From Geosiphon pyriformis uo1 (lineage: Eukaryota > Fungi > Glomeromycota): a DNA stretch of 45,564 nt. The stretch covers positions 65,652 to 111,215 of the forward strand of contig JAAOMT010000029.1 of assembly GCA_016748015.1 (NCBI GenBank), written 5' to 3'. A program made the translations under genes and the position numbers. The notes beneath the pieces are model-generated. The model saw only the letters and a program-made list of their open reading frames with translations. It had not been told where the DNA came from and did not search any database. How positions within the stretch are numbered: the first letter of the stretch is position 1; every line of letters starts with the position of its first letter. Shown here one piece after another: positions 1 to 45,564 of this stretch.

Positions 1-439
1 AAAACTTGGATTTTATGGGGAAGTGTTCTGGGTTTAGTTATCAAGGCAATTCCGCAATTTCTTGTGCAGGTACGTAAATTTGACTAACTAAAATCTTTTT
101 TCGATTTGAAATTGAAATTTAATTGGTTTCATTTTCTTTCAGATCTTGTATCGGAAAAATGTTGTAACGTGTGATATCATTCCTCTAATCACTCTAATTC
201 TCAGCGCCGTTCTTCTTCTCAGCAATATATTGCACAAAATATTTTTCTTAATCCAACAGCTGAAAAAACCAAAACATCAGAAAGTCCCAAATTTTCTTAA
301 AGACGAAGAAGAGTTCAACAATTTAAAAAATCAAAAACTTAATGCGAGTACCTTTGATCTTGAGCCTTCGGATTCCTCCACAGTTATTGCAGATCACAAA
401 TCTGGTTTGTTATCAAAACCTTCTTTGGGAAGGGGTTAA
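1..439 (+). CDS. 3' part of a multi-pass membrane protein gene (5'-truncated by window), copy A; join(<1..69,143..439)
   Basis: GT-AG intron 70..142 (gtacgt...actaac...ttttctttcag). Spliced frame reads KTWILWGSVLGLVIKAIPQFLVQ|ILYRKNVVTCDIIPLITLILSAVLLLSNILHKIFFL, i.e. two hydrophobic helices and a charged tail. Near-identical copy at the other window end. Confidence 0.7.
43..422. repeat. Left arm of ~380-bp inverted duplication (partner 45185..45564)
   Basis: Reverse complement of 45185..45564 aligns without indels (position sum 45607). About 7 substitutions by eye, intron included. Confidence 0.95.
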
Positions 440-829: not shown

Positions 830-1514
830 GATTGATTTGTCGTTGCGTTACCGAAATCGCCAAACTAACTGTTTTCCCCTTCGCACTTCTCAACATTATG
901 TCCCCCTACTTTGGGAAAATGGCTAATTTTCGGATATTCATCGTCACACCAGATCGGCAAGATCGTGCGCGGAAATCATTTCGTTGCGGCAGCCGAAATC
1001 AAAGCGCTCAAAGAAAATCTATCCAGAATTCGAAGTCGGCAAATAAACTGTCCGGTACAAGCTCTCAAGGCTTGGCTACATTGCCATTCTGCTCAAACTT
1101 TCAATAAAAATGTGTATGAGGATCTCCAAGCAAGAGTTCCATGTCGTGTTTTGCTGTGGTTATCATATAGCCCACAACTCGACCTCATTGAGAATATTTG
1201 GGCTGTTGCGAAATACGAAAAGTATTGTAGAGAAAAAAAGTGATAGAAATAGTGACAAAAAAAAGGGTGTTTCAAGAGATTTTTATTAGTTAATAAAAAA
1301 GAATAGTAATCTTTCTAGAAAAGATAAAATTTAATAACATTTGTACCATGTCTGCCCTTATTCAAGCTTGTATAAATGCAGTACCTAATATTAATTTTTA
1401 CACATATTAAAGCATTAATGTTAAGGTATCTTTGATAAAAAGCTTCTAGATTTCTGTTTGAGAAAATCTTGTAATTTATAAAAAATGTCCGCCATTACTT
1501 CCACCGGAACTGTA
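830..1514 (+). mobile_element. Degenerate Tc1/mariner DNA transposon remnant
   Basis: VLLWLSYSPQLDLIENIWAVAK matches the Tc1 WPxxSPDLNPIENxW motif. A C-terminal-like ICTMSALIQACINA lies at ~1340-1380. The putative right TIR ends ...ccggaactg followed by TA at 1513-1514. Internally deleted and frameshifted. Left TIR not found, so the left boundary is approximate. Confidence 0.75.
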
Positions 1515-6478: not shown

Positions 6479-7198
6479 TTAGGTTCTTGCTTCTGTGTCA
6501 GCGCCACTCCATACCTGCTTCCCAGCACGTGGTCCCAAAGTGATATGCGGGTCATCAGTTGATGTATCATCAAATTCAATTGGTTCTAATTCATGCACTA
6601 TGATCGCCTTATTCAGGGCCTCTTTACGGATTGCTTGATTTTGATTTCGACGCTCGGGAGTCGCCATTGCCTTAAAATCGTTGATACAAATAAAAAATTT
6701 TGAAAGAATAATAGGCTTAAAGCATTCAAACGTAATATATTACTTCAGCATCCATATTAACAAAATCAGCTTCACTTATATCACCATTTGCCACCCTTTT
6801 GCGAAGCTCAAGGTTTTTCTTCAGATTCCAAATATGGCTGCGTGTCTTATTCTTGTATTCCTGAGCAGTATTGGAGCCACAATTATAGATTTTTTCTTCG
6901 ATACACTCTGCTTTTTGGTAAAGGCGATTTTTTTCATCTTGTATTAAAAAAAAAATCATATTTTACAATGACTTTGTGCAAGATGCATATTCCAATTCAG
7001 ATAGTCAAAATTCATCATAACACTTTAATACCTTGACTAAGGTCACATCCATCTATCAAAGCTTCGTATATCAGTGCTACAACTTAAAATTGCAACAATA
7101 TTAAATGAAAAAGAATAAGCAGTAAAAGTTCCAACCAGAAAAAACCAACTTTTTTTACGAGTTTTATCCGAAACATCGACTTTATTATTTGCTGACAT
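6479..7198 (-). CDS. Stand-alone TFIIS central (TFIIS_M) domain protein, ~161 aa; complement(join(6479..6670,6744..6937,7032..7082,7150..7198))
   Basis: Four exons with phase-compatible GT-AG introns. Reads MSANNKVDVSDKTRKKIVALIYEALIDG...AECIEEKIY...YKNKTRSHIWNLKKNLELRKRVANGDISEADFVNMDAEAMATPERR, matching the TFIIS domain II pattern YKxKxRSxxxNLKxxxxLRxxV. Confidence 0.8.
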
Positions 7199-7283
7199 TA
7201 AAAATTCACTACAGTTTTTCGCTCAGAGAAAATAAAAGGAAGCAAGTTTAAAATAGCGCGAGATATATGATTTGAAATAATTA

Positions 7284-7291
7284 TGACGTCA
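7284..7291. promoter_or_regulatory. Possible CRE/ATF bZIP site TGACGTCA
   Basis: Perfect palindromic octamer ~85 bp upstream of the TFIIS_M gene ATG. Motif match only. Confidence 0.25.
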
Positions 7292-7489
7292 GCAGTGAAG
7301 TAATGAGGTTGCTAAAATTTAGTCATTTCTGTTGATTATGCCAAAATGTTTATGGTCCAGATTTTTATTGATCTCAAACCTTTAAAGTCTGAGAAACTCG
7401 TGACGAAAAGGTTAGTGAAAAGAAAGCTTATATAACATGAAAAATTATTCTTTTTGGCAACTAATTCCAAGCGATGAAAGATTTTGCAT

Positions 7490-8655
7490 TATTAAATATT
7501 CTCAGATGGATTGTAATATATCAAATAATAGACAATGCTACTATTTCCTGCATGATCTACAGAGAGTGTCAAGGCTCCATTTCGGCATTTATACATCTCA
7601 GATCCTCCGATGTTTTGGATGTTTCCACACAAACTGCAAGTCTTGGACATATAATCTTCATTTTGGATAATAACATGAACTCCTAATTCCTAGGCCTTGC
7701 TGACCAGGCGTTGTAAAAAGCGATTATACGCCTAAAAAAGCATTTCCGGATAATCTTTTTGTTTTGCAATTCACCATGTCCGATACTTCAAAAGGAGGTA
7801 TGATTTCATTTAGCAGGTGTATAACTTTTTGCCACATCCGAAAAATCGTCTTATCGGGTCACCAGGTCATTTTATTCTTGCTTTTTGAGGAAGATGCTAA
7901 TAACATCCATTTTGGAGATGAGATCATTCATGTACTTTCAATGCGAATTATACGTCCAATAGAACGTTTGCCAATCTCGTCTACACCTTTTGCGGGAGAG
8001 TACCATGTAAAAGGTGTATGAACGCCAGGAACAATAGACTACGTGAACAGATAAACTCCCATTCATTAGTTTTGTGACAGTAACGGGCCACCTACTATTA
8101 TGCCTTTTTTTTCGAAATCAAGAGGCCACAAAACATGCTTATCATTATCCAGAATGGTGGTAGGCTTATAAAGATGTGTAGTAAGCATTGACGGATTATA
8201 GAGATAAGTGACATAAAAACGGTTCCATGTAGTTTTCGAGAAATTCTGTCATTTTTGCCGCAGATCTTTTCGAGATCAAAATGATAGAGTGTGCTGATAG
8301 ACCTTGCCGATTTGAATTACGCTTAATTCTTCTCCAGCAATCAATGCTTCATCGATTATGTTCGCAGACGCTTTGCCTTGGGTACCCTGAAGCAACATTC
8401 CAAGACATAAAACGGTTCGCATGAACTTGATTTCGCCCCATATTGCAGCTTTTTGGAGTTCTTCATGTTCATTCAAATTTATCTTTGATGGATTGAGGCT
8501 TTATCCAAGCTTGTTGTGATTAATCAATATGGGAATTTATAGCATAAAAATGGCGATATCGACTCTATTAGACAATAATATTATAAGCAAGCCCATCCAC
8601 CGCTTCAAGAACTGCTTGAGGATGATTCGGATACACCTTAATTAATAGTATACGG
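7490..8655 (-). pseudogene. tnpB: TnpB/Fanzor2-like RNA-guided nuclease pseudogene
   Basis: Fragments across frames, in order: RILLIKVYPN..LKRWMG..AYN; TLSF*SRKDLRQ; SIVPGVHTPFTWYSP (RuvC-I SIDPG with D>V at 8032-8030); IIPPFEVSDMVN; AYNRFLQRLVSKA*ELGVHVIIQNEDYMSKTCSLCGNIQNIGGSEMYKCRN (ExxxSKTCxxCG zinc ribbon). Multiple stops, frameshifts and deletions; RuvC-III DRD motif absent. Confidence 0.85.
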
Positions 8656-8669
8656 AAAATGGAAGAAAA

Positions 8670-8942
8670 AGAAATATTGAAAAACGTCAAAAGGCAAGTC
8701 GTCAAAGTTTATCATGGCGGGCGACCACAGTTTCCGAGACCATTCCGCGGATTATTTTTAGTTTGCACTAGAAACACGGACAATGGTAGTGGTATCAGCA
8801 TTTTGAGTAGTTCAAGAAAGAAGGGTATTTATTTTCGTGATTTTGAACCTGATAGTAAGCATCAGTATATTAACAAGGAATGATACCAGTCCCGGTTGAA
8901 TAATCAAATGTATTTTGAAAATGGCTTAATATGAAGCTCAAA
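8670..8942 (-). pseudogene. tnpA: IS607 TnpA-like serine recombinase remnant
   Basis: RVSSA at 8778..8764 matches the resolvase catalytic (Y)xRVSS motif. It is followed by IIRGMVSETVVARHDKL*RLAFD (VVxxxDRLxR motif). Upstream SFILSHFQNTFDYSTGT resembles a decayed N-terminal HTH. Heavily deleted. Confidence 0.7.
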
Positions 8943-9243
8943 AAAGGTTGAAAATTAATAATATGCAATTAAAATGAAAATATCTTTCTTAATTATATAA
9001 AAATATTCAAAAAAAATTGTTTTTAATAATATTTTTTTAGAATTTTGATTGTATTTTTAAATAAAAACATCTTAATATTTTAGATTTTTATTTATCACAA
9101 GTTCAATTTTTTCAGCTTTTCATGAATAATAAAATAATTTCATGTTTTAGATTTCTTTTTATTAAAATTTCATTTAGGAAAAAAAATCTCATTCAAAATA
9201 TTTTCCATTTCAATATTTCAAAATGAAAAACAACTAATTTACA

Positions 9244-11475
9244 AAAAAAAAATTTTGTATTTTCCATTTATTTAATCTAAAAAGCCAGAACTATCAATAA
9301 GATACTTTTTGTAATTTTTTAAAAATATATTAAGAATGTTAAAAAACTTTGTAGTTTAAAAAAAATTAAATCTTTCATTGGTTGTAAAGCTTGAAAATTC
9401 AAGATTCTTTGTTATATACTAATTAGCAATTTTGAAATGATCCAGAATCTTATATACATTCATATATTGGAAGACAAACAATAAAAGAAGTAAGGACTGA
9501 TTTTCCGCATTAATCTAACGAGAAAATGTTCTAAAAAGCGGCTTTTTTTTTGAGCTATTTTTGGAAGCATTTGTAAAACTTTAATGGAAAAACCTATAAG
9601 TCAATTAATATTTTCTGAATTTTCGAAGAAAGATTTGATCAAATTGAGACAGTGTGTTGCATTTTGAGAGAATATCATTTGATCCTTTTTTTAGATAATT
9701 GTACTTCCAAGGCTTACTAACTGCCTACCCAGTGTGTGGGAAATATTAACTAATCTATAGAGTTCCAAAAGGCAAAGTGTTTTTGTGTATTAAATAAGCG
9801 GTTATCTCATGGCATATTTTCATTTTCACACATTTTTCTAGACCTACCCGCTGATTATGTGTGTAATCTCAAACAACCCTGTCATTTTGTATTATCTCAA
9901 ATCTTTTCTTTATTTACATTAAAGAAATAAGGTTTGTGTTTGTTATTTAAACATTGTACATGAACTAATCTCAAATGATCATTTGTGTTCAAAACATTCC
10001 TTTTCTCTTTTAGACGCCAATTTTGGAAAATTGCAAAAATATATTGAAAGAACACTTGATCTACATTATATATTAATTATAGATTACTCACCAAAAGAAC
10101 AGAATTTCTCAAATCCCATTAAAATTTCATTTTAAAAAAATATTCATCTATTAATTTTAGATATAAAAGGAAAGATTTGAATCTTATTTCAAAAAAAGTA
10201 TAAAGATTGACAAAATTTCATGTTTTTTATCCGTTTACTCTCACCCCGAGCCGATTTTTCCTGCAAAAAATTGACCTTTACTATACTATATTACACACTA
10301 TTGTTACAGAAGATTCTCAAAATGACTTTGAGTACAATTCTCATTTGATNNNNNNNNNNNNNNNNNNNNAAAAAAAAATTTTGTATTTTCCATTTATTTA
10401 ATCTAAAAAGCCAGAACTATCAATAAGATACTTTTTGTAATTTTTTAAAAATATATTAAGAATGTTAAAAAACTTTGTAGTTTAAAAAAAATTAAATCTT
10501 TCATTGGTTGTAAAGCTTGAAAATTCAAGATTCTTTGTTATATACTAATTAGCAATTTTGAAATGATCCAGAATCTTATATACATTCATATATTGGAAGA
10601 CAAACAATAAAAGAAGTAAGGACTGATTTTCCGCATTAATCTAACGAGAAAATGTTCTAAAAAGCGGCTTTTTTTTTGAGCTATTTTTGGAAGCATTTGT
10701 AAAACTTTAATGGAAAAACCTATAAGTCAATTAATATTTTCTGAATTTTCGAAGAAAGATTTGATCAAATTGAGACAGTGTGTTGCATTTTGAGAGAATA
10801 TCATTTGATCCTTTTTTTAGATAATTGTACTTCCAAGGCTTACTAACTGCCTACCCAGTGTGTGGGAAATATTAACTAATCTATAGAGTTCCAAAAGGCA
10901 AAGTGTTTTTGTGTATTAAATAAGCGGTTATCTCATGGCATATTTTCATTTTCACACATTTTTCTAGACCTACCCGCTGATTATGTGTGTAATCTCAAAC
11001 AACCCTGTCATTTTGTATTATCTCAAATCTTTTCTTTATTTACATTAAAGAAATAAGGTTTGTGTTTGTTATTTAAACATTGTACATGAACTAATCTCAA
11101 ATGATCATTTGTGTTCAAAACATTCCTTTTCTCTTTTAGACGCCAATTTTGGAAAATTGCAAAAATATATTGAAAGAACACTTGATCTACATTATATATT
11201 AATTATAGATTACTCACCAAAAGAACAGAATTTCTCAAATCCCATTAAAATTTCATTTTAAAAAAATATTCATCTATTAATTTTAGATATAAAAGGAAAG
11301 ATTTGAATCTTATTTCAAAAAAAGTATAAAGATTGACAAAATTTCATGTTTTTTATCCGTTTACTCTCACCCCGAGCCGATTTTTCCTGCAAAAAATTGA
11401 CCTTTACTATACTATATTACACACTATTGTTACAGAAGATTCTCAAAATGACTTTGAGTACAATTCTCATTTGAT
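9244..11475 (+). repeat. Identical ~1.1-kb direct repeat (9244..10349 and 10370..11475) flanking a 20-N scaffold gap; probable assembly artefact
   Basis: Constant offset 1126 and no differences seen. Copy 1 ends and copy 2 begins exactly at the N run 10350..10369. Confidence 0.9.
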
Positions 11476-28280: not shown

Positions 28281-28975
28281 TTATTATTTAGTAAACTCAT
28301 TCAACTTTAATGGAGAAATGAGCAATTTCTAATTTGTAAATATTTTTGACAAATATCTTCTCATTTCTTTGATAACAGTCTTGTCCAATTTCAAAGGAAT
28401 CTCATAAGACTTTTACCAATATGTTTAGACTTTATAAAATTTAAATTTCTAGTTTTTCAATCATTTTTTCCGAATTTTAAAGTTTAATATACCCAGTATA
28501 TTATTCATTTGGAAAATAAAAAAAATCTTTCTTTTATCGAGCTTGGCTTCTCAATACAATTCGAACAATGAGAATTGATCTTTGATATTTCTTCTTTACT
28601 TGTAAATTTATTTATTACTCAAATGAAACATTATTTTATAATTAAATAATCCCGAAAAATCCCGTAAATTTTAGTTTTCTTCATCATCACAAGAGTAATC
28701 AAACAAAATTGACAGCTCGTGAATCTTTTAATATAATTATTAGCTTAGTAGTAGCAAATTCGCGCAAAGTCATATATTATTCCTTTTCCTCAATCTCTTT
28801 TTTACTTTTACTTTTTTTTTTCTTTTTTTATTTTTATTTTTTATACTATGAGAATAATATTATGCTCTAAAAAATTTATAAAGCTATTCCGAGGATCAAA
28901 GGAACTTAAAATTTTAATCGTAAAAATACTAAATTCATTACATCTCAAAGAACATTCTCTTCTTTTCATTTTAAA

Positions 28976-29862
28976 ATGAATTTCATTTCATCATACAATC
29001 TTCCCTTGTACCATTCAAAAAGATATTACGATTGTCAATTCGAACTTTTTTGGCGAAAAGTTAGCCAGCAAAACTCATCAATTTCTTCACGTAAAATCAT
29101 TCAATCTATTTTATTACTCTTCATATTGATATACCCAATGATACATATTTATCATAAGCATAATTATCATTTATCGAAAAAATTAATACAAAATGATTTA
29201 TACAATACGACAATGCAAAAAAACCTTTTTAATTTTAGTTATGAAATAAATCGGTTTCCAAATTTAGTTAGTCGAGAACTAAGCAAAAGTATCAGTCATT
29301 TCAAAATAAGGGTTTCCAGTCCTGCTTTCTTACAAATGACCCAACAATACGCATGGTATGCCATGAAATCTTATTGTTTGAACAAGAAAAATATCGTTGC
29401 TCCAGGAATTTATGGTAATTTTTTATCTATCTCGACAGCTATGAAATGATTTATTTTTCAAAAAGTTAATTTTTATAATTTCTGTAAATTATAACCCCAG
29501 CAAACATTAAAGTCGTGCAGGACCAAATAATTCTAAGCGTCAGGGGACCAAATTTAAATGATCCCAAATATTGGGAATCAAGAAGTCACGAGCTTATTGC
29601 CTTCCAAGGAGTTCATGGTGCAAAAGTTGATGCGGTATTTTATCAACAATTTCAGAAAACTAAATCTGCCCTAGGGGATGAAATATTGGAAACAGTAAAG
29701 GCAAATGAGATTTATACAGTCGCGTCTGTTGGCCATGGTGCAGGTGGTGGTAAGCAGACTCATACCCTAAAAAATAATTCATATATTCTATATTTAAGCG
29801 GAAATTTGAAAAAAAAAATTTATATTGTGCTCTCTCTCTTTTTCTCTCTCTTTTTCTCCCTC

Positions 29863-29956
<94 letters not shown>

Positions 29957-30592
29957 ATTATTTTATTTATCATCTTAGTTTTCGCCACATTTGCTCTATT
30001 GGAGTTTTGGGAACAGATCAATTCTATTAATGCTAAGATAGCAGAATTTGAAAATTTGATCAAAGTTCAATTAGTATTGGTCAGTTTCGGACAGCCACAC
30101 ATTGGCAATAAAGTCTTTGCACAATATATGAATGGACTTCAATATAAAGGAATCTTGAAGGTCTATCGATTTACTAATACAGACGATATGGTGCCGAGAC
30201 TACCTGCTCGTGTTGAAGGGGCTTACCATCATTATGTGCATAGTGTTTTCGAAGTATGGCAAGGTGAATCCACTTGTGACTGTCAACAAGAAGATACCAT
30301 CCTATATTTATGTAAAGGTCAAACACTATCAGACGAGAGAGGTATTCCATTAATTGAGGAAAGTCAGGTAACTATTTTAAATCATTTAAGCCTTTTTACT
30401 CTTACACAAAAAAATTAAACTTAATTTATTCAATTAAACTTTGCTTTTCTCAATTTTTATAAAAAGGAATGCAATAATAAATATGGGATAGCTCATTTTA
30501 CTCCACACAACGGGCCATATTTGCAAGTGCCAATGGGCAGTTGTTTAAAAGACATTCCTCCATGGGAAAAACCCATCTTCCACATACATTAA
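28976..30592 (+). CDS. Class-3 lipase-fold protein 1 (nucleophile Ser replaced by Gly), ~400 aa; join(28976..29414,29501..29749,29979..30367,30467..30592)
   Basis: Lipase_3 motifs in order: YAMKSYC, ILSVRGP, VDAVFYQQF, SVGHGAGGVFATF, SFGQPHIGNKVFA, YRFTNTDDMVPRLP, YVHSVFEVW, HNGPY. N-terminal hydrophobic anchor; canonical introns. Confidence 0.9.
29830..29956 (+). repeat. Imperfect (CT)n microsatellite within lipase-1 intron 2
   Basis: Seen directly; source of the SLSLSL and ERERER pseudo-ORFs. Confidence 0.95.
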
Positions 30593-32018
30593 CATTTAAA
30601 CCATTTAAATCCATACTTTCCTTTCTCAATTACTCATATAAGGTTGGTTTTTTTTATCAAAAAGTTTCTTTTTCTTTAAAATAATCAAAGATATCTTAAA
30701 AAACTTTTTTTTTGCCATTTTTAATTATTTGATTAAAAAAATTTTCAATTTAATTGGCTGTACAAAAATTGTTCATTATAGAAATCGATTTAGGGATTTA
30801 AATTTTTCACATGTATTAAGTAATATGGAGCGATTAATAAACCTATTCTCTCAAAATATTGAATTCCAAACTCTAGACCCAGACAAAGAGCTTCATATTT
30901 TTCAACGGAAAATTTTGGAAAACAAAAATTTTAATTGGTTGATGATTTATGAAACTAAATATTTATCCAGTTTCATCTTTATAGGTATTGAAAAAATTCG
31001 CCTAATCGAATAAACAGACCATTAAAATAAATTATGATGATGATGATGATAATGCTAAAAGGAAGGTGGGTATGACCTGATTCCTAAATCGCCTGAATTC
31101 CCAACAAATTTTCATATCATGATATTAATATATATATGTATAATGGATCAGGCCAAAATTTTATTTAATTCCTATCAAAAATATCGGGATAGATGATCAA
31201 TAATCAAATATTTGCATTGGGTTTAGCTGTCAATTTGTTCCATTGTCAATCCCCAAACGATGAGAAACTTTATGTCAGGTGAGAATTTTCCTTGTTCCTG
31301 TTACGACTTATGACCTGCATCACAAGCTCTTACTTCTTTATCAAATTTATCTATTATTTCTTATGAAGATCTGTTTGTAATTATTTTTCTTATAGATAAA
31401 GTTGACAAACAATGAGAGTACCCCAAATTTTTTTGAAGAATTTCCTACATGTCTTAATTAGAGCCTTAATAGAGATTTTCGTGATAAATTTTTTAACTTT
31501 TTTATAAAAACAAAAATACTAAAACAAAAATTAAAACTATTCACACATGATTTTTTTTTTTCTGAAAATTATTTTGAAATCTTTTTTTTTTTTTTTTTTT
31601 TTTTTTTTTGAAAATTAAAAAACTGTTTAAAAAAAAATTTATAACAGAATTTATTCAAAAAAATATTCATAATTAAAAACTTTTTATCATGTATTAAATA
31701 TTAAATTTATTATGAATTTAAAATTTATTATTATTTTGAAAATTTTTAATTAAAATTGTAAAAAATTAGGTTTTAAATATATTGGATAAAATTTTAATTT
31801 TAATTAAAATCTCAATTATCAGATCAAAATATTAATTATATTGAATTATTATTATTATTATTATTATATCCAAATGGTATATATTTAATAAATTTTAAAT
31901 CTGTTAATAAACTGATTTTACTTTATTTAAAAATTATTTAAATATTGAATAAAATTATTTATAAAATAATGATAATAATAATAAAAATAAAAATAAATAA
32001 AAATAATAATAACAAAAA

Positions 32019-32029
<11 letters not shown>

Positions 32030-32077
<48 letters not shown>
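32030..32077 (+). repeat. (TAA)n microsatellite in extreme AT tract
   Basis: Seen directly. Confidence 0.9.
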
Positions 32078-32078
<1 letters not shown>

Positions 32079-33386
32079 TGTTGTAATTAAAAAAAAAGTA
32101 TTACAATTATTTTCAAAAAATGAAAATTTGAATGATTATAAAAATATTTTTATTTTAAATATTAATAATGTAATTAATATTCTTTATTATTTTATATTTA
32201 AATATAAAATCCAAAAAAAAATAAAAATGAAAAGATGAATAAAAAAAAAGTAATTTTTTTTTGTATTTTGTAACAAATAAATAAAGAATCAGAAATTTTT
32301 TTTTTAAAAAAAAACCGTTTCAAATTTTAAATGACTTTATTTATTTATTTATTTATTCAAATACAAAGTAATATATTATTTTGAAGAAAAAAATATCATA
32401 AATAGTCAGTTAAAATTTTCAAAAAAAAAAGTTATTAATGAATCGATTAAAGAATGAATGTTTTCTTGACAAATAATATTGGAAAAAAAAGTAAAAATTA
32501 ATTTCATTAGTTTAATTTGTTTGTTTAAACTATATTTTGAAAAATTGTGTTATGCTGAAAAAAAAATGTAATGAAATATTTTATTTAATTTTTACAATAT
32601 ATATATATATGTATTTTTTTTTTTAAAAAAAAAAAAAGTAATTAAAAAACTTATTTTTAATATTTTAAAAGGAAAAAACATTTTAAAAATAAAAAAACTT
32701 TTTGTATTATTATTATTATTTTTTTTAAAAAAAAAGCATGATAATCTCTGATTAACCAATAATACTCTGTTTTTTTTTTGGTGAAAAATAACTATCTACA
32801 TATTTTGGTTAATCTCCTTTGAGTTTGTCGCAGAATGGAAGATTTATGTATTATTTACACATTTAGCTTTATTAGCTTTGCTTTGTCGATAAGCTATTTT
32901 GGGCTAGTAATATCCAAATTTGAAATTTTATTCTCAAGTTTTTGTTCAACAATGATTTCATATTTAATGATCGCGGAGATAGAATACATGATAACTTTCA
33001 AAACAATCTAGTTAAAGTGTTATTATTATTATTATTATTATTTTTTGAAATTAGTTATTTATGATAATCATAGCTCTTTGTTTAATAATAAAATGGGTAA
33101 TCACGTTTGAAACTATTCGATTGGATTTCAAATTTTGTTTTGCCAAACCATTTATATTGTATTTTTTTTGAAAAAGTGCTTTTCCAAATTCATGAAAAGA
33201 AGGGATGAATTGGAGCGTAAATTATTTTTCACCAAAGTTTAAAAATTATTTATCGATCGATGGTCTGAAAAAATTGCTTTAAAAATGAGGTCAGTTGAAT
33301 AAAAAGTTTTTGTATCATAATTATTCCCTTATAAATTTGCTTTTTAATTATTAAAAAATTTTATTTGTTCACTTTTCTTTACCCTC

Positions 33387-34846
33387 ATGACACATTCAAA
33401 TTTTATTATTTTGAAACATTTAATAAAACGATACAAAGTTTTTGATCTGTTGAAAGAGGGAAATGTTTTGCTCAAATTTTTGATTGCAAACTTATTATTC
33501 CTATTTATATGTGGAATTATATTAAGTCAAATGAGCGAAAAGTCATCATTATGGACATTAAATCTCTATTTTGAGAATTCGACTAACCCTCAGACCCTTC
33601 CAATTCTTGCGTTAAAAAATATTTCAATTATCCCTTCTTTCGGGAACCAAAATTTCACACCTAAAAGTCCGGAACGGGAAAATTTTACAATTTCCTATCA
33701 TACATTTAATTCCATTTCTAAGCATAAACCTTTCAATAAAAAAAATACCAATGGTTTTAAAGCAAAATTAACCGATTTTCAACTTGAAAAATCCAAAAAA
33801 TATGCTTGGCATGCATCACAAGCATATTGTCTTAAAAATGAACATTTAATTGCTTCAGAAATTTATGGTATATGTTTTTTATTTTTTAAAAAATAGGAAA
33901 CAACAAGAGCTTGATTTATTTAAAAATATTTATTTTTAGCAAATGTTGAGGTTCAAAAAGGAGAAATTATTTTGACTTTCAAGGGTGAAAAAGTGAATTA
34001 CCAAAGTTATTGGGACGGACGAGAGAAAGGCCTTATTCCATATCAATATAACCAAAGGGCGTTTGTCGATAAAATTTTCTTTCAGAAATGGAATCAAACT
34101 AAAAATTCCGTCTCAGAACGTATAATTGAAGAGATCAAATATCATGGTATATACACTATTGTAGCGGTCGGACATGGGATAGGTGGTGGTAAGCTTTTTA
34201 TATTAATCAAAATCTCTGATGATTATTTCACTTCAACCTTTGAGTTTGATAATAAGTTTCCTATTTTTATTTTATTTTTTTTAACTTTACATTAGTCTAC
34301 GCGACTTTTGCAATTCTAGAATTGCTAGAAATTTTAAAATATTCGAAATTCAAACTAGATCCTATTGTACGTGCTCCAAAGCTTTCTTTGCAAGTATTTA
34401 CATTTGGCCAACCCCACATTGGTGACAGAGAGTTTGCAAGACATGTTAATGATTTAATGTTCGAAGGAAAGTTATTAGTTTATAGATTTACGAACACAAA
34501 CGATTATGTTCCTCAATTACCAGAAAGTACATTTCAAAGCTATTACACTCATCATGCTTGGGAATATTGGATTGCATCAGATTGTGAATGTGCACTTCCT
34601 GAAGTTTATGTTTGTCAAGGACCAAAAGTTTTCGAAGATGGTAAAACATACATTGGAGAAAGTCAGGCAAGTTTGATTTAACCATTTTTGAAACTCAATT
34701 TTTTGCATTTCAACTGACTTTTTTAATATTATTAGGAGTGTAATAACAGCCTCCAACCAAGTTTTACATCACATAATGGTCCATACTTAGATATAATGAT
34801 GGGAGACTGTATACGAACAAACCTTCAAAAAGAACGAGTAGCTTAA
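33387..34846 (+). CDS. Class-3 lipase-fold protein 2 (Ser>Gly), ~403 aa; join(33387..33867,33940..34188,34296..34666,34736..34846)
   Basis: Same exon structure as paralogue 1. Motifs HASQAYC, AVGHGIGGVYATF, TFGQPHIGDREFA, YRFTNTNDYVPQLP, HNGPY. The last intron uses a GC donor (gcaagt, 34667). Confidence 0.9.
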
Positions 34847-36960
34847 ATCTTGATTAACAAAATATAGATTCTTGAATTCAGACTTTATTTATTTATTTAT
34901 TTATTTATTTAAAAATTTATTTAAACTTTTATTTAAACTTTTAATAAAAAAAATGTGTTTTAACTATATAGTATAAATTATTTAAAAAATCTCAATTGAT
35001 ATTTTTATTGAAACTTCTTTGGTTCCCGAGAAAATGTTAAAGTTATAATTTTTATCTTTGCTGTAAGCTAAGAATTTCCACCATTTTTTTTTGATGCATA
35101 AACTACCTCATCTGGTCATCTTGTATCAAAATAAAACAAAACCAGAATCGTTTATGAATCATTAACTTTCTGAACCGGTTATATTTTTATCTTAATTGGT
35201 CTTGTTAAAAGCAAGATATCTTTAGTTAAAGAATATTTTCTTTTTTAATTATATAATCATTGACCTAGGGAATATCAATTTTTCAATTTATTCTATAAAC
35301 TCTTACAAATGAAAAATGAATTTTCATTTTTTTGAATATTTCAAAAAAAACATTGATATTTTATCCTTAACGTTTCGTTTATTTGAAAGGTAAAAATTTG
35401 TTAAAATCGCTAGTTTTCATTTTTTCGCTAATTAACAATATTATCCACAGTGTTATTCAGACTAAAAATTAATTAGGCTGTTATCCTCGGGGATGAATTG
35501 AGCAAAATAAACTTTTTTCCTAGAGTTAAACTATGCTTAATGCTTCTAACACGTGGTTAGGTATATTAATTGCTTAATCTGTTGGCATTTCATATTCGGA
35601 AGAAATATCTAATGCGAATAATTCTCAGGTGATGGTGTCATGGGTACGGTTAAGCTGAATCTCAAAAGTTTAAAACTATCTTGATTTCCAGAATCTATTA
35701 TTTATCAGATTAATGGAAAAGAGTTTCGTGAAAGAGCTAGATTTTCATATAATAAAACTTTAAAAATTTTGTTAGATTTTTAAAGAATTAAAGTAGCCTT
35801 GGTTCTCAAATTATTCGTTAAATTTCATATAGTATTCGTATATAACCTCTCACCATTGTGATTTCTTCTAAAAGAATATGAATTAATTGAGCTTTTTGTT
35901 TTGCAACTTAAAATTATTTTTAAATTTCTCTTGAGCTTAGGGAGTACTATTGATAACCATAAATTTTGAATAGAGTCCTATTAGCGAATGCAGCTTGTTA
36001 AAAAATTAAGATTTTCTACAATGTTAATTGATAAAGGTTAATTTAAAGGATAAAATCTATTATAAAAACTTTTAGCTTATGAATAAAAATGATTTGTATG
36101 CTATTGAGGATAAAAACTATTTTTATAACAAGCACAAGAAATTTTCTTTTAAAATTTTCTTCAATGTATAATACATTGAAGAAATAACCTTTTACATCTT
36201 TTTATAATAATACTTTCACAAAGATAACAAATGAATTTTAAAACTAGAATGAAATCAGTATTTTTTTATGCCCTTTGACAAGAAATACTCTAAAGTTTGG
36301 ATTTTTTTAACTTTATTACATTCTAAATATATATATTAAATTAAAATATAAAATATTTTCTTTTATATTTGGTTTCCTAAGAGTAAATTTGATCAGAAAA
36401 GTAAAGGAAAAAAAATGTTTCTTACATTTCTTTTATTGAAGAGTAAAAAGTTTGGTTGATAAATCACTTTTTTAACAAAAATTCAGCCTACCTTAAAATT
36501 TATTTTTCTATCCAAAAAGGAATTTTCATACCCGTTCCTTTACCGGTGCTGGTCTCCGATCTTGTTCATTTTTTAATTAAGACAAACAAATATTAAACTA
36601 ATTTTCTGGCAAAAAAATAAAAATCGCTTTAAATCCATATTAAGAGGCGTTGGTTTATCAATCATATTCAATATTTGAATTTGTTCGCTTTCATCAAAAT
36701 GAAGAAATTTTGTTTAATCAAATTGAATATTTATACTGTTTGATGAGATTGCCGTAAAAATCAAAAAGGTCATAGAACTTTAGGAATATAACTTTTTAAA
36801 TCTTGGACCTTGAAAAATTGCTATCATAATGAAATTTTTCTTTATTTTGTTGCGAATTGATAGTTTTCCATTTTGAAAACTCTGCAAATTAAAAATAAAT
36901 GATCTCTGGCGAATTTTTTTATTGATAAAAAAGCGGTTTATTGATAGCTTTAAAAGATTA

Positions 36961-38583
36961 TCAAGATGAAAGAAATTGGTTGCACTCTCCAAAAGTAATA
37001 CCAAAATAAGGACCAAAATTACTGGATTTACCTAATCCATCAGTTGACTTGTTACATTCCTGAATTAAAGTACAAAGTTAAAGAGAAAGAAAAGATTTAT
37101 ATCAGTCTAAAAGAATTTCAAACCATTTTGATGTTTTTAAGTTGGCAAAAAAATCATACCCCGTTCTCGGCAAGTTTTCCTTCCCTTGTATAATATGATG
37201 GGCATTGATAAAGATCAAATCGGTCCGAGTTTTTGCCATGTATAGTGCTTTTGCAATCACAGTTGACCTGAGTGATCCAGAATTCTTCACCGCTATGTAA
37301 ATATTCTTTCCGTGTAACAGTCATTGTTGGTAATTGCGTCACAAAGTCATTTGTGTGCGTGACTCGAAAGACTCTGAAATGTTCTTCTAAGGCTTCGTCT
37401 ATAAGTTTCGCGAATTCATAATTTCCAGCCCTGGGTTGTCCAAAGGTTACAACAGTAATATACACGCTCTTGTGTTTTATTTGTAGGAGAGGCCTTTTTT
37501 TTAATTCCCAATGTACCATCAGCGCCAGATATTGTGCATAAACTTTGCATAGTTCCCATCAATAGAAATTGTATTTAGCTTTTATTAATTAAATTAGTGT
37601 AAGATATTGTCAAAGAAAAAATACCTCCTCCAATCCCGTGTCCAGTAAAAAAAATATTAATACTTTCAGATTGTATTACCTCCATTTGATGTTCAATCTT
37701 TGTTAAAAGCCTTGAAAATATTGCGCCGGATATAACTTTGGACCATTTGGAATCAATTCTAAAATGAATTTTTTTTTTTTCAAGCTGAGTAGTAACTTCA
37801 TTTTGATAGAATTTCATAGCTTTCCATTTGCTTCTAGTCATTTCTGGTCCTAAATCGAAATTTCCATAAATGAAAAAAGTCACAATCCAGAAACTAAAGG
37901 AAGAGTTATTTATATTTTTGAATTTAACAGCAGTTGACTTACCACGTAAAACTCCTACGATGCCAGCATCTTGGCCCGTCAGAAAAACGTCTCCTTTTTT
38001 TTTTTTTTTTTTTTTAAAATGAGAATAAATTAAAGAGTCAATTAAACTCTGTGTCTAAATTCTAGATTTCTCTTTATATATATATATATATATAATTTCA
38101 TTTATTACAATAAATGTAGTTACCTATTATTTCAGGTTCTTCTCCCCCAAGATAATTGAGTTCTTTAGTACAATAAAGTATACTTGCCCACCTTGCCATA
38201 TTTTGAAAAAAAACTCCAATCAGGGGATCCTTGATCAAAATTTTAGGTGGTGATTTGTTTGTAGAACCAAAACCCTTTGCGCTACGGCTCATTAAAATTT
38301 TTCGATGCCCCTTTAAAGACTCGTTTTCGACCATATACGAAGAATCTCTATGAATTGATCTAGTGATCAAGTGCTGGGTATGATTAATGGATAATTCTAA
38401 GTTTGAAAAGTTCAAAGGCGGAGGCTGCATGCCACTAACAAAAATACAATTAAAGAGCATGCTAAGTAAAATAAAAAAAAGTTCTAATGATAATGATGAT
38501 GATGATGATGATTGAAATTTGAAGCGAAAATTTCTTTTTCTGCAATGACGAATTTTATTGGCAAAGATATTTGAGCCCTTCAT
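36961..38583 (-). CDS. Class-3 lipase-fold protein 3 (Ser>Gly, His>Asn), ~405 aa; complement(join(36961..37059,37160..37542,37625..37849,37943..37993,38124..38583))
   Basis: Motifs WASILYC, VLRGP, FTGHGIGGVYAQY, TFGQPRAGNYEFA, FRVTHTNDFVTQLP, YLHSGEEFWI, ECN...SNFGPYFG. N-terminal hydrophobic segment; one extra intron relative to paralogues 1 and 2. Confidence 0.87.
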
Positions 38584-38995
38584 GATTCAGTAGATTAAAA
38601 TATTTTACAAGACAAACTCATTTTCAAATATTTTTCAACTCGTCAACTTCAAAGGAAAATTTTGTTAAAATCGTAAGTGTTTCACCAGCAGGAACTTGCT
38701 TAACTAGAACGGATTAAAATTCAGCTTTTTTGAGTCAAAAAGTTTTGTGCCGAAATATTTACCAAATAAAAATTTAAGCTTCATAGAATTGAGGATAGGT
38801 TTAAAATTTAAATTCCCTAGACTATGTAAAATTAAAAAAAAAATTAAAAAAAAATGGGAATTATTTTTTAAACATTAATAATTATGAGTACAAACAAAGT
38901 TATTTACATGGTATTGATAAAACTCAAAAAATGCTAATTTTGAAAACTTTTTTAAATCTCAAGAGAAGCTTAGATATAGATCTGTATGTATATGT

Positions 38996-45182: not shown

Positions 45183-45564
45183 TCAAGGTTTTCCTAACAA
45201 GCCAGATTTGTGATCTGCAATAACTGTGGAGGAATCCGAAGGCTCAAGATCAAAGGCACTCGCATTAAGTTTTTGATTTTTTAAATTGTTGAACTCTTCT
45301 TCGTCTTTAAGAAAATTTGGGACTTTCTGATGTTTTGGTTTTTTCAGCTGTTGGATTAAGAAAAATATTTTGTGCAATATATTGCTGAGAAGAAGAACGG
45401 CGCTGAGAATTAGAGTGATTAGAGGAATGATATCCCACGTTACAACATTTTTCCGATACAAGACCTGAAAGAAAATGAAACCAATTGAATTTCAATTTCA
45501 AATCGAAAAAAGATTTTAGTTAGTCAAATTTACGTACCTGCACAAGAAATTGCGGAATTGCCTT
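45183..45564 (-). CDS. 3' part of membrane protein gene, copy B (5'-truncated by window); complement(join(45183..45464,45538..>45564))
   Basis: Inverted near-identical paralogue of 1..439 with the same intron. Ends ...SGLLGKP* instead of ...SGLLSKPSLGRG*. Confidence 0.7.
45185..45564. repeat. Right arm of ~380-bp inverted duplication (partner 43..422)
   Basis: Direct reverse-complement match. Confidence 0.95.

What the first reader, a model, noticed from the sequence alone, without database searches (positions are those of the whole stretch)
7467..8942. Hidden fossil of an IS607-type element with a Fanzor2/TnpB RNA-guided nuclease in a fungal chromosome
Seen only by stitching minus-strand frames. 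Resolvase motifs (RVSSA; VVARHDKL*R) are immediately followed by TnpB motifs (KVYP..LKRWMG; F*SRKD; SI[D>V]PGV; IIPPF; NEDYMSKTCSLCG). Established: IS607 elements carry a serine-recombinase tnpA plus tnpB and gave rise to eukaryotic Fanzor2. Fanzors show a rearranged RuvC-II, with Pro/Gly at the canonical Glu and an alternative Glu before the zinc ribbon. That pattern is present here (IIPPF; E at 7659-57). Inference: this copy is dead (catalytic D>V, RuvC-III deleted, stops), but intact family members may exist elsewhere in this genome or lineage as a source of new programmable nucleases.
Basis: partly seen in the sequence, partly recalled or inferred. Interest (0 to 1): 0.72.

Follow-up and report, generated by a model that had tools for sequence, protein, structure and literature searches.

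The report
Dead IS607-Fanzor2 transposon in soil fungus
This is a broken copy of a bacteria-derived jumping gene whose intact relatives encode a likely RNA-guided DNA cutter (Fanzor2); the copy is dead and its protein family is already catalogued in these fungi, so its main use is as a pointer to intact relatives.

Summary
Confirmed: a decayed IS607-type element with a Fanzor2 gene lies on the minus strand, from about 8900 to exactly 7503. The zinc ribbon passes Pfam's cut-off and the best solved match is mimivirus Fanzor2. Against intact relatives, RuvC-I Asp is Val, RuvC-III is deleted (66 nt), about 509 nt are lost in 12 deletions, and the guide-RNA fold is gone. The resolvase scraps miss Pfam but match relatives' tnpA DNA (E 3.6e-9). 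A public Geosiphon pyriformis gene model matches the locus letter for letter, and a DNA run holds dozens of diverged copies. Relatives are Glomeromycota, a chytrid and metagenome sequences. Saito 2023's supplement already lists this family as Fz2, including two Geosiphon proteins. Added here: a sharp right end (…CATCCG), a predicted CCG-core TAM, a conserved omegaRNA fold, 2 of 23 metagenome loci with intact Fanzor2 frames, and rejection of a direct Nostoc donor. In intact relatives the nuclease's N-terminal domain is overprinted on tnpA for about 180 codons; this scan found that before on other DNA. Verdict: real, but a new member of a known kind.

The parts
8823..8900 (-). Probable remnant of the left-end subterminal region; candidate CCG core at 8895-8893
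   Evidence: 3, 10, 24 and 24 of 2000 shuffles reach the score against 4 relatives' left ends (region chosen after inspection); no nhmmer hit. Moderate support only.
8752..8822 (-). tnpA remnant 1: Thr-rich linker and RVSSA motif (8778-8764); holds the ATG (8801-8799) that opens the Fanzor2 frame in relatives; tnpA start and helix-turn-helix are missing
   Evidence: 0 of 2000 shuffles against each of 6 relatives; alignments; ATG position by comparison
8658..8753 (-). tnpA remnant 2, dual coded: MVSETVVARHDKL*R in the tnpA frame and SRKLWSP (8739-8719, Fanzor2 N-terminal domain motif) in the other frame
   Evidence: nhmmer E 3.6e-9; both frames seen; overlap in relatives
8106..8654 (-). Fanzor2 WED and REC remnant with frameshifts, stops and deletions
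   Evidence: tblastn 54% and 45% identity to P0005; deletions mapped
7748..8105 (-). RuvC-I with catalytic Asp changed to Val (8032-8030), bridge region, and IIPPF (7804-7790) at the canonical RuvC-II position
7581..7761 (-). Shifted RuvC-II Glu (7659-7657) and zinc ribbon; ends at the 66-nt deletion that removes the last Cys and RuvC-III
   Evidence: PF07282 E 2.5e-8; ApmFz2 match E 9.7e-8; deletion
7503..7580 (-). Last codons, remnant of the predicted omegaRNA scaffold, and right end; terminal CCG reads CTG; last base 7503
   Evidence: fold z -0.28 against -2.3 to -5.2 in 7 relatives; 4 other contigs leave the sequence at 7505
7483..7502 (-). 3' flank: the position that would supply the guide in a live element
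   Evidence: conservation stops here in all relatives; guide role inferred from TnpB/Fanzor literature

Best explanation
This is a dead, deletion-riddled copy of an IS607-type transposon carrying a Fanzor2 gene, from a family that likely spread by transposition in a Glomeromycota fungus, most likely Geosiphon pyriformis. Shown: both gene remnants, the lesions, the right end, many diverged copies, and intact relatives of about 2.2 kb. Inferred for the live element: the serine recombinase TnpA would excise and insert it at a CCG core without inverted repeats. Fanzor2 (about 625 aa, read in the +1 frame from inside tnpA) would bind a roughly 130-nt omegaRNA transcribed over its last codons and the right end, use the 3' flank as guide, and cut the emptied donor site so that repair restores the element. 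The predicted TAM has a CCG core, probably with A or G rather than T at position -4, since the element's own right end (TCCG plus flank) must escape cutting. This copy can do none of that: two of three catalytic Asp/Glu positions, the DNA-binding part of TnpA and the RNA fold are lost.
For: Fanzor2 identity: PF07282; ApmFz2 is the top solved match for the window piece, for family profiles (E 5.8e-25; E 9.6e-63 over residues 52-509) and for a model of relative P0029 (Z 22.0, rmsd 4.2, 439 aligned). IS607 identity: relatives carry Resolvase and weak MerR-type hits; window DNA matches them. Ends: 11 of 12 relatives with a right-end match end in CCG, with 10 distinct flanks; 3 of 4 left ends follow CCG. 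RNA: z -2.3 to -5.2 in 7 of 7 relatives; 6 of 32 pairs change on both sides, reached by 1 of 500 shuffles. Host: P0004, labelled Geosiphon pyriformis, is identical over its exons here. Copies: 240 contigs of run X1 lay on the region, up to 26 at one position, the listed ones mostly at depths like the flank's; 4 leave at the right end into other sequence. Death: 12 deletions totalling 509 nt; D>V and RuvC-III loss.
Against: No Pfam Resolvase hit in the window, and the tnpA protein profile scores only E 0.04. The left end is only moderately supported and 1 of 4 relatives lacks CCG there. No empty site was seen, so a CCG crossover core cannot be told from a fixed 3-bp duplication. The -4 rule rests on 3 left flanks. 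Covariation counts are not corrected for relatedness, and the first hairpin lies in coding sequence. X1 may be the window's own source and contigs give no copy number. Hosts of the metagenome loci are unknown. No activity was tested.
Confidence: 0.9

Rival explanations
1. The element came straight from the Nostoc cyanobacterium that Geosiphon houses (symbiosis recalled from memory), or is Nostoc contamination.
For: Pro-Fanzor IS607 elements are mainly cyanobacterial; 6 Nostoc loci carry related TnpB with the same overlap layout.
Against: The window sits in a 96*-supported group with Glomeromycota proteins, apart from a 98* group holding all 6 Nostoc rows; window plus Nostoc is rejected, p-AU 5.5e-5. 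Relatives occur in Diversispora, Gigaspora, Cetraspora, Rhizophagus and a chytrid. Neighbours are intron-broken fungal-type genes, and one contig runs from the flank into the element with no difference. Limits: quick tree, long window branch, only the best 80 of 583 bacterial loci were seen, and the second AU test did not finish.
Confidence: 0.03
2. The remnant has been domesticated as 5' exons of the neighbouring TFIIS-central-domain gene, as the public gene model P0004 draws it, or as a nuclease-dead RNA-guided binder.
For: P0004 splices Fanzor2 pieces onto the PF07500 exons at 6947-6482 and skips the stop codons.
Against: The copy has a very long branch (0.77-0.99), stops in every frame, scattered deletions and no RNA fold. 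Gene predictors often splice around stops in dead transposons (established knowledge); three other Geosiphon models look like similar patchworks.
Confidence: 0.05
3. The copies spread passively, by segmental duplication or inside another transposon or an integrated giant virus, rather than by their own recombinase.
For: Gilbert and Cordaux found no evidence of IS607 transposition in the eukaryotes they studied and saw shared flanks (PMC3673617, passages); some Fanzor2s ride other transposons.
Against: Homology stops at one base with unrelated flanks across 10 relatives and in 4 contigs of X1; tnpA parts are present in about 18 contigs of X1; no inverted repeat between the ends by inspection; no close relative in viral contigs.
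Confidence: 0.08

Closest known systems
Glomeromycotina Fz2 proteins in Saito et al. 2023, Supplementary Table 1 (PMC10432273): Geosiphon KAG9289801.1 and KAG9286232.1, Diversispora RHZ45176.1, Cetraspora CAG8554615.1
   Same: Same family by eye: SIDPG.RTPFTWYSP, NEAYTSKTCS and the ...DHAGN tail; RHZ45176.1 begins with the same sequence and has the same length as P0024.
   Different: This locus is not one of the two Geosiphon rows. The rows are broken gene models; the rows seen give no element ends, omegaRNA or TAM.
ApmFz2 / ISvMimi IS607 element of Acanthamoeba polyphaga mimivirus (PDB 9B0L; PMC11832414)
   Same: DPG RuvC-I, shifted Glu, N-terminal domain; top solved match by sequence and fold.
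   Different: Viral, TAM GGG, 247-nt omegaRNA; here nuclear fungal, predicted CCG core, predicted scaffold about 130 nt, and this copy is dead.
NlovFz2 of Naegleria lovaniensis (PMC10432273)
   Same: Nuclear eukaryotic Fanzor2 with TAM 5'-CCG, the core predicted here from the ends.
   Different: No sequence comparison was made; the TAM here is predicted, not measured.
Cyanobacterial pro-Fanzor IS607 elements (PMC10711439 / bioRxiv 10.1101/2023.08.09.552727)
   Same: DPG and shifted Glu; tnpB overprinted on tnpA in the +1 frame in 51 of 54 loci with both frames found.
   Different: A separate clade. The first tnpB ATG most often lies 67-76 nt after the tnpA ATG (35 of 51) against 157 nt in 7 of 7 relatives of this family.

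Membership tests
Fanzor2 | RuvC-I D-P-G motif | tested here: met
   Family DPG in A1; this copy reads VPG, a lesion
Fanzor2 | Catalytic Glu shifted to six residues before the zinc finger, none at the canonical site | tested here: met
   E 7659-7657 and IIPPF; definition
Fanzor2 | Zinc ribbon followed by RuvC-III R-D | tested here: met
   Met for the family; in this copy PF07282 hits but RuvC-III is deleted
Fanzor2 | N-terminal domain as in ApmFz2 | tested here: met
   Profile A4 aligns to 9b0l from residue 52; model aligns 84-642 to 53-517; parts of the model's N-terminus are low confidence; only a scrap survives in the window
Fanzor2 | Encoded in a eukaryotic genome and grouped with catalogued Fz2 | tested here: met
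   relatives labelled FZ2 in Saito's table
Fanzor2 | Structured omegaRNA at the right end | tested here: inconclusive
   Conserved predicted fold in relatives, lost here; no expression data; pseudoknot not tested
Fanzor2 | RNA-guided, TAM-dependent DNA cleavage | not testable with these tools
   Needs biochemistry; this copy lacks two catalytic residues
IS607 | tnpA serine recombinase with N-terminal helix-turn-helix upstream of tnpB | tested here: met
   Relatives: PF00239 above cut-off, PF00376 below cut-off; window keeps two scraps
IS607 | No terminal inverted repeats or target duplication; short shared core at both junctions | tested here: inconclusive
   CCG at 11 of 12 right ends and before 3 of 4 left ends; no inverted repeat by inspection; no empty site, so core and fixed duplication cannot be told apart
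IS607 | Transposition by TnpA | not testable with these tools
   Only indirect: dispersed copies with sharp ends
Fanzor1 | Closer to SpuFz1/GtFz1 and carried by a eukaryotic-type transposon | tested here: not met
   Foldseek ranks ApmFz2 first (E 8e-20) and SpuFz1 38th (E 4e-6); the partner is an IS607 tnpA

The most novel reading that the evidence does not exclude
A bacterial-type IS607 element transposed under its own recombinase in fungal nuclei for a long time while keeping the overprinted two-frame layout, with both proteins made from one eukaryotic mRNA by leaky scanning (no ATG in the 154 nt between the two starts in 4 of 7 relatives), and the family still supplies intact, untested ~625-aa Fanzor2 nucleases (L002, L005) with an (A/G)CCG TAM and a compact ~130-nt guide RNA.
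Probability: 0.4. Interest if true: 0.55.

Novelty: new member of a known kind. Interest (0 to 1): 0.3.

Why it matters
The copy itself is a fossil. Its value is indirect: it defines the ends, predicted guide RNA and predicted TAM of a Fanzor2 family of mycorrhizal-type fungi that published catalogues hold as broken gene models, and it points to two intact nucleases that could be screened as compact genome editors. Dozens of dispersed copies with a sharp end also bear on whether IS607 elements really jump in eukaryotic nuclei, for which a 2013 survey found no evidence (PMC3673617, passages).

Tried and rejected
No whole genome is held, so copies were seen only through run contigs. The long stop-masked frame P0001 found nothing in Pfam, NCBIfam or PDB. 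Von Willebrand hits to the zinc ribbon are a repeated short-motif match. I first suspected RuvC-III survived as SVDHAGN; relatives show that is the C-terminal tail. A tnpA protein profile gave only E 0.04. A broad left-end alignment was not convincing (2, 8, 12, 18 of 300 shuffles). No close relatives in viral contigs (one weak hit, none) or bacterial/archaeal genomes; these pattern scans find close relatives only. No RNA holder listed. No sign of strong CpG decay: 6 transitions at 30 CpG sites against 28 at 208 other C/G sites, CpG o/e 0.97. The within-gene synonymous shuffle did not show the open +1 frame to be significant in any single locus (P 0.06-0.25); only the uniform null did (P at most 0.002 in 6 of 7). 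The lack of intervening ATGs is weak: about 2 expected per locus and the loci are related. L011 positions 850-999 (helix-turn-helix region) had no cover in X1 or X2 at 80% likeness, which proves nothing. The careful tree and the second AU test did not finish. Earlier-findings look-ups by place and by sequence were blank.

Full report
Observation. One stop-masked frame hits PF07282 at E 2.5e-8, above the curated cut-off, and NCBIfam's TnpB model below its cut-off; the other two frames hit nothing. The 3' piece's best solved match is mimivirus Fanzor2, 9b0l. A search with residues 120-430 of frame P0001 returned 16 proteins among 1491 candidates. Against the closest near-complete one, P0005, the window aligns in three frames at 45-54% identity (E 5e-85). 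The catalytic Asp of RuvC-I is Val, and 22 residues holding the last Cys and RuvC-III are missing. Against five relatives the window has 12 deletions of 8 nt or more, 509 nt in all, between 8760 and 7503.

Host. P0004, labelled Geosiphon pyriformis by its source, is identical to the window over its exons and splices Fanzor2 pieces onto a TFIIS-central-domain gene at 6947-6482. The window is 28% GC with intron-broken genes for a sphingolipid desaturase, a potassium transporter, Sel1 repeats and class 3 lipases. So the host is most likely that fungus or a very close relative. Named relatives among the best 120 of 339 profile hits are Diversispora, Gigaspora, Cetraspora, Rhizophagus and the chytrid Borealophlyctis; named bacteria (Uabimicrobium, Magnetococcus, Moorena) start at 242 bits against 834 for the closest.

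The intact element. A metagenome scan gave 23 loci. They show a full tnpA, with PF00239 in 2 of 2 tested, upstream of the nuclease. The window keeps two scraps of tnpA: 8753-8658 (E 3.6e-9) and the RVSS segment (0 of 2000 shuffles against each of 6 relatives). The helix-turn-helix, about 40 codons between the scraps (read from the alignments) and 200 nt at about 8656 are gone. Conservation ends at one base: 11 of the 12 loci with a right-end match end in CATCCG (one in CCA), followed by 10 unrelated flanks; the window reads CATCTG with the last base at 7503. Three of four left ends follow CCG. The window's left end is probably near 8892-8900, with moderate support. L005 is a full element of about 2.2 kb with an open 627-codon Fanzor2 frame and a stop in tnpA. 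Only 2 of 23 loci, L002 and L005, have an unbroken Fanzor2 frame with all five motifs; many of the rest are cut by contig ends or broken. Hosts of these loci are unknown.

Guide RNA. The last ~130 nt fold with z -2.3 to -5.2 in 7 of 7 relatives tested, and -0.28 in the window. The consensus has a hairpin inside the RuvC-III codons and a closing stem two bases from the end; 6 of 32 pairs change on both sides, reached by 1 of 500 shuffles, with no correction for relatedness. The 66-nt deletion removes the first hairpin, so it hits protein and RNA together. In ISXfa1 the right end differs from the TAM so that the element is not cut (preprint, part 5). Here left flanks read ACCG, ACCG and GCCG, while right ends read TCCG; I infer a CCG-core TAM with discrimination at -4. 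NlovFz2's measured TAM is CCG.

Overlapping genes. In 5 of 8 relatives examined the Fanzor2 frame is open for about 180 codons in the +1 frame of tnpA; the other three carry stops or frameshifts. The same overlap holds in 51 of 54 bacterial loci where both frames were found, out of 80 fetched. A profile with this region aligns to ApmFz2 from residue 52, and a model of relative P0029 (mean pLDDT 68) matches ApmFz2 over 84-642 against 53-517, Z 22.0, covering the N-terminal domain described in PMC11832414 (parts 1-2 of 5 read). The window's 8753-8658 scrap is a piece of this dual-coded DNA. I found the overlap before consulting earlier notes; the scan had already reported it on bacterial, phage and giant-virus DNA. 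IS607 ORFs are known to 'often overlap' (PMC6188088, PMC3673617; passages). Searches for the overprinting itself found nothing in print (0 papers, no 'overlap' in PMC10711439; listings show no such title).

Other copies. One DNA run, X1, holds the stretch and may be the window's own source. At 80% likeness 240 contigs lay on 7000-9300; summed depth is 83 in the right flank and 300-2400 inside 7462-8847; up to 26 contigs differ at one position; 4 leave at 7505; others carry the RuvC-III segment this copy lost. Laid on L011, 216 contigs match, about 18 at a tnpA position and 26 near the right end, many with apparent internal deletions. Contigs give no copy number and none spans an element, so intactness is untested. 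The listed pieces have depths near the flank's, which suggests old, diverged copies rather than a recent burst (inference).

Origin. Geosiphon houses Nostoc (recalled), and pro-Fanzors are mainly cyanobacterial, so I tested a direct transfer. A quick tree of 116 of 203 RuvC regions puts the window in a 98* group with Glomeromycota, the chytrid and unnamed sequences, apart from Moorena. A second quick tree of 52 hand-picked rows with 6 Nostoc loci agrees, and window plus Nostoc is rejected, p-AU 5.5e-5. The window's branch is long and the trees are unrooted.

What is known. Fanzor2 in IS607-type elements was described in 2013 (PMC3627910, passages). Saito 2023 says Fz2 is found broadly in fungi (passages); its Supplementary Table 1 lists two Geosiphon proteins and many other Glomeromycotina proteins under FZ2, some of this family by eye (term searches and one part of 158 read; file 2 could not be searched). 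The NAR supplement lists Diversispora, Gigaspora, Rhizophagus and Borealophlyctis but no Geosiphon; the supplements of PMC10530073 gave no hit. A 2025 survey of transposons in these fungi does not mention Fanzor, IS607 or TnpB in its main text (term search). 'Fanzor' with 'Glomeromycota' gave 0 papers; with 'arbuscular mycorrhizal', 4 papers, of which the 3 listed are on other subjects by title and abstract start. The homing model for the live element follows a review's passages (PMC13565253). Of the bioRxiv preprint I read parts 1, 3, 4 and 5 of 7; its supplements are closed, and subscription papers and Repbase were not searchable.

Verdict. It is one dead copy of a family already catalogued as Fanzor2. 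The useful additions are the ends, the predicted RNA and TAM, two intact candidates and the rejection of a Nostoc donor. New member of a known kind; interest 0.3.

Noticed in passing
window 6482-6947 (-), possibly with upstream exons to about 7198: TFIIS central-domain gene (PF07500, E 6e-16) about 550 nt beyond the right end; the public model P0004 fuses the Fanzor2 remnant to it, probably a prediction artefact.
   Followed up: partly
window 9244-9543 and 10370-10669: Identical direct repeat of at least 300 nt on either side of a 20-N gap; likely an assembly overlap artefact.
   Followed up: no
window 43-422 and 45185-45564: A 380-nt repeat, 98% complementary, at the two ends of the window in inverted orientation; probably a young repeat that broke the assembly.
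   Followed up: no
window 869-1243 (+): ORF whose end looks like a Tc1/mariner DDE transposase remnant by eye (motif recalled); no Pfam hit at E 0.01.
   Followed up: partly
window about 28900-38600: Cluster of at least three intron-broken class 3 lipase-like genes; PF01764 confirmed for 2 of 2 pieces tested.
   Followed up: partly
run X2 on window 7000-9300: X2, coded as the same sample as X1, holds several of the same diverged copies but has no cover on this locus's right flank; the tool warns that a filter leaves records out, so absence is unproven.
   Followed up: no
L011 1231-2847 in runs X1 and X2: A contig joins tnpA directly to the right-end region, skipping 1615 nt; may be a short non-autonomous derivative.
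   Followed up: no
L014 about 630-690: A segment of tnpA is inverted in this copy.
   Followed up: no
Saito 2023 Supplementary Table 1, rows 1861-1874 and 2165-2178: Glomeromycotina assemblies hold at least one other Fz2 group that looks distinct by eye, and TnpBs of their Moeniiplasma endobacteria.
   Followed up: no
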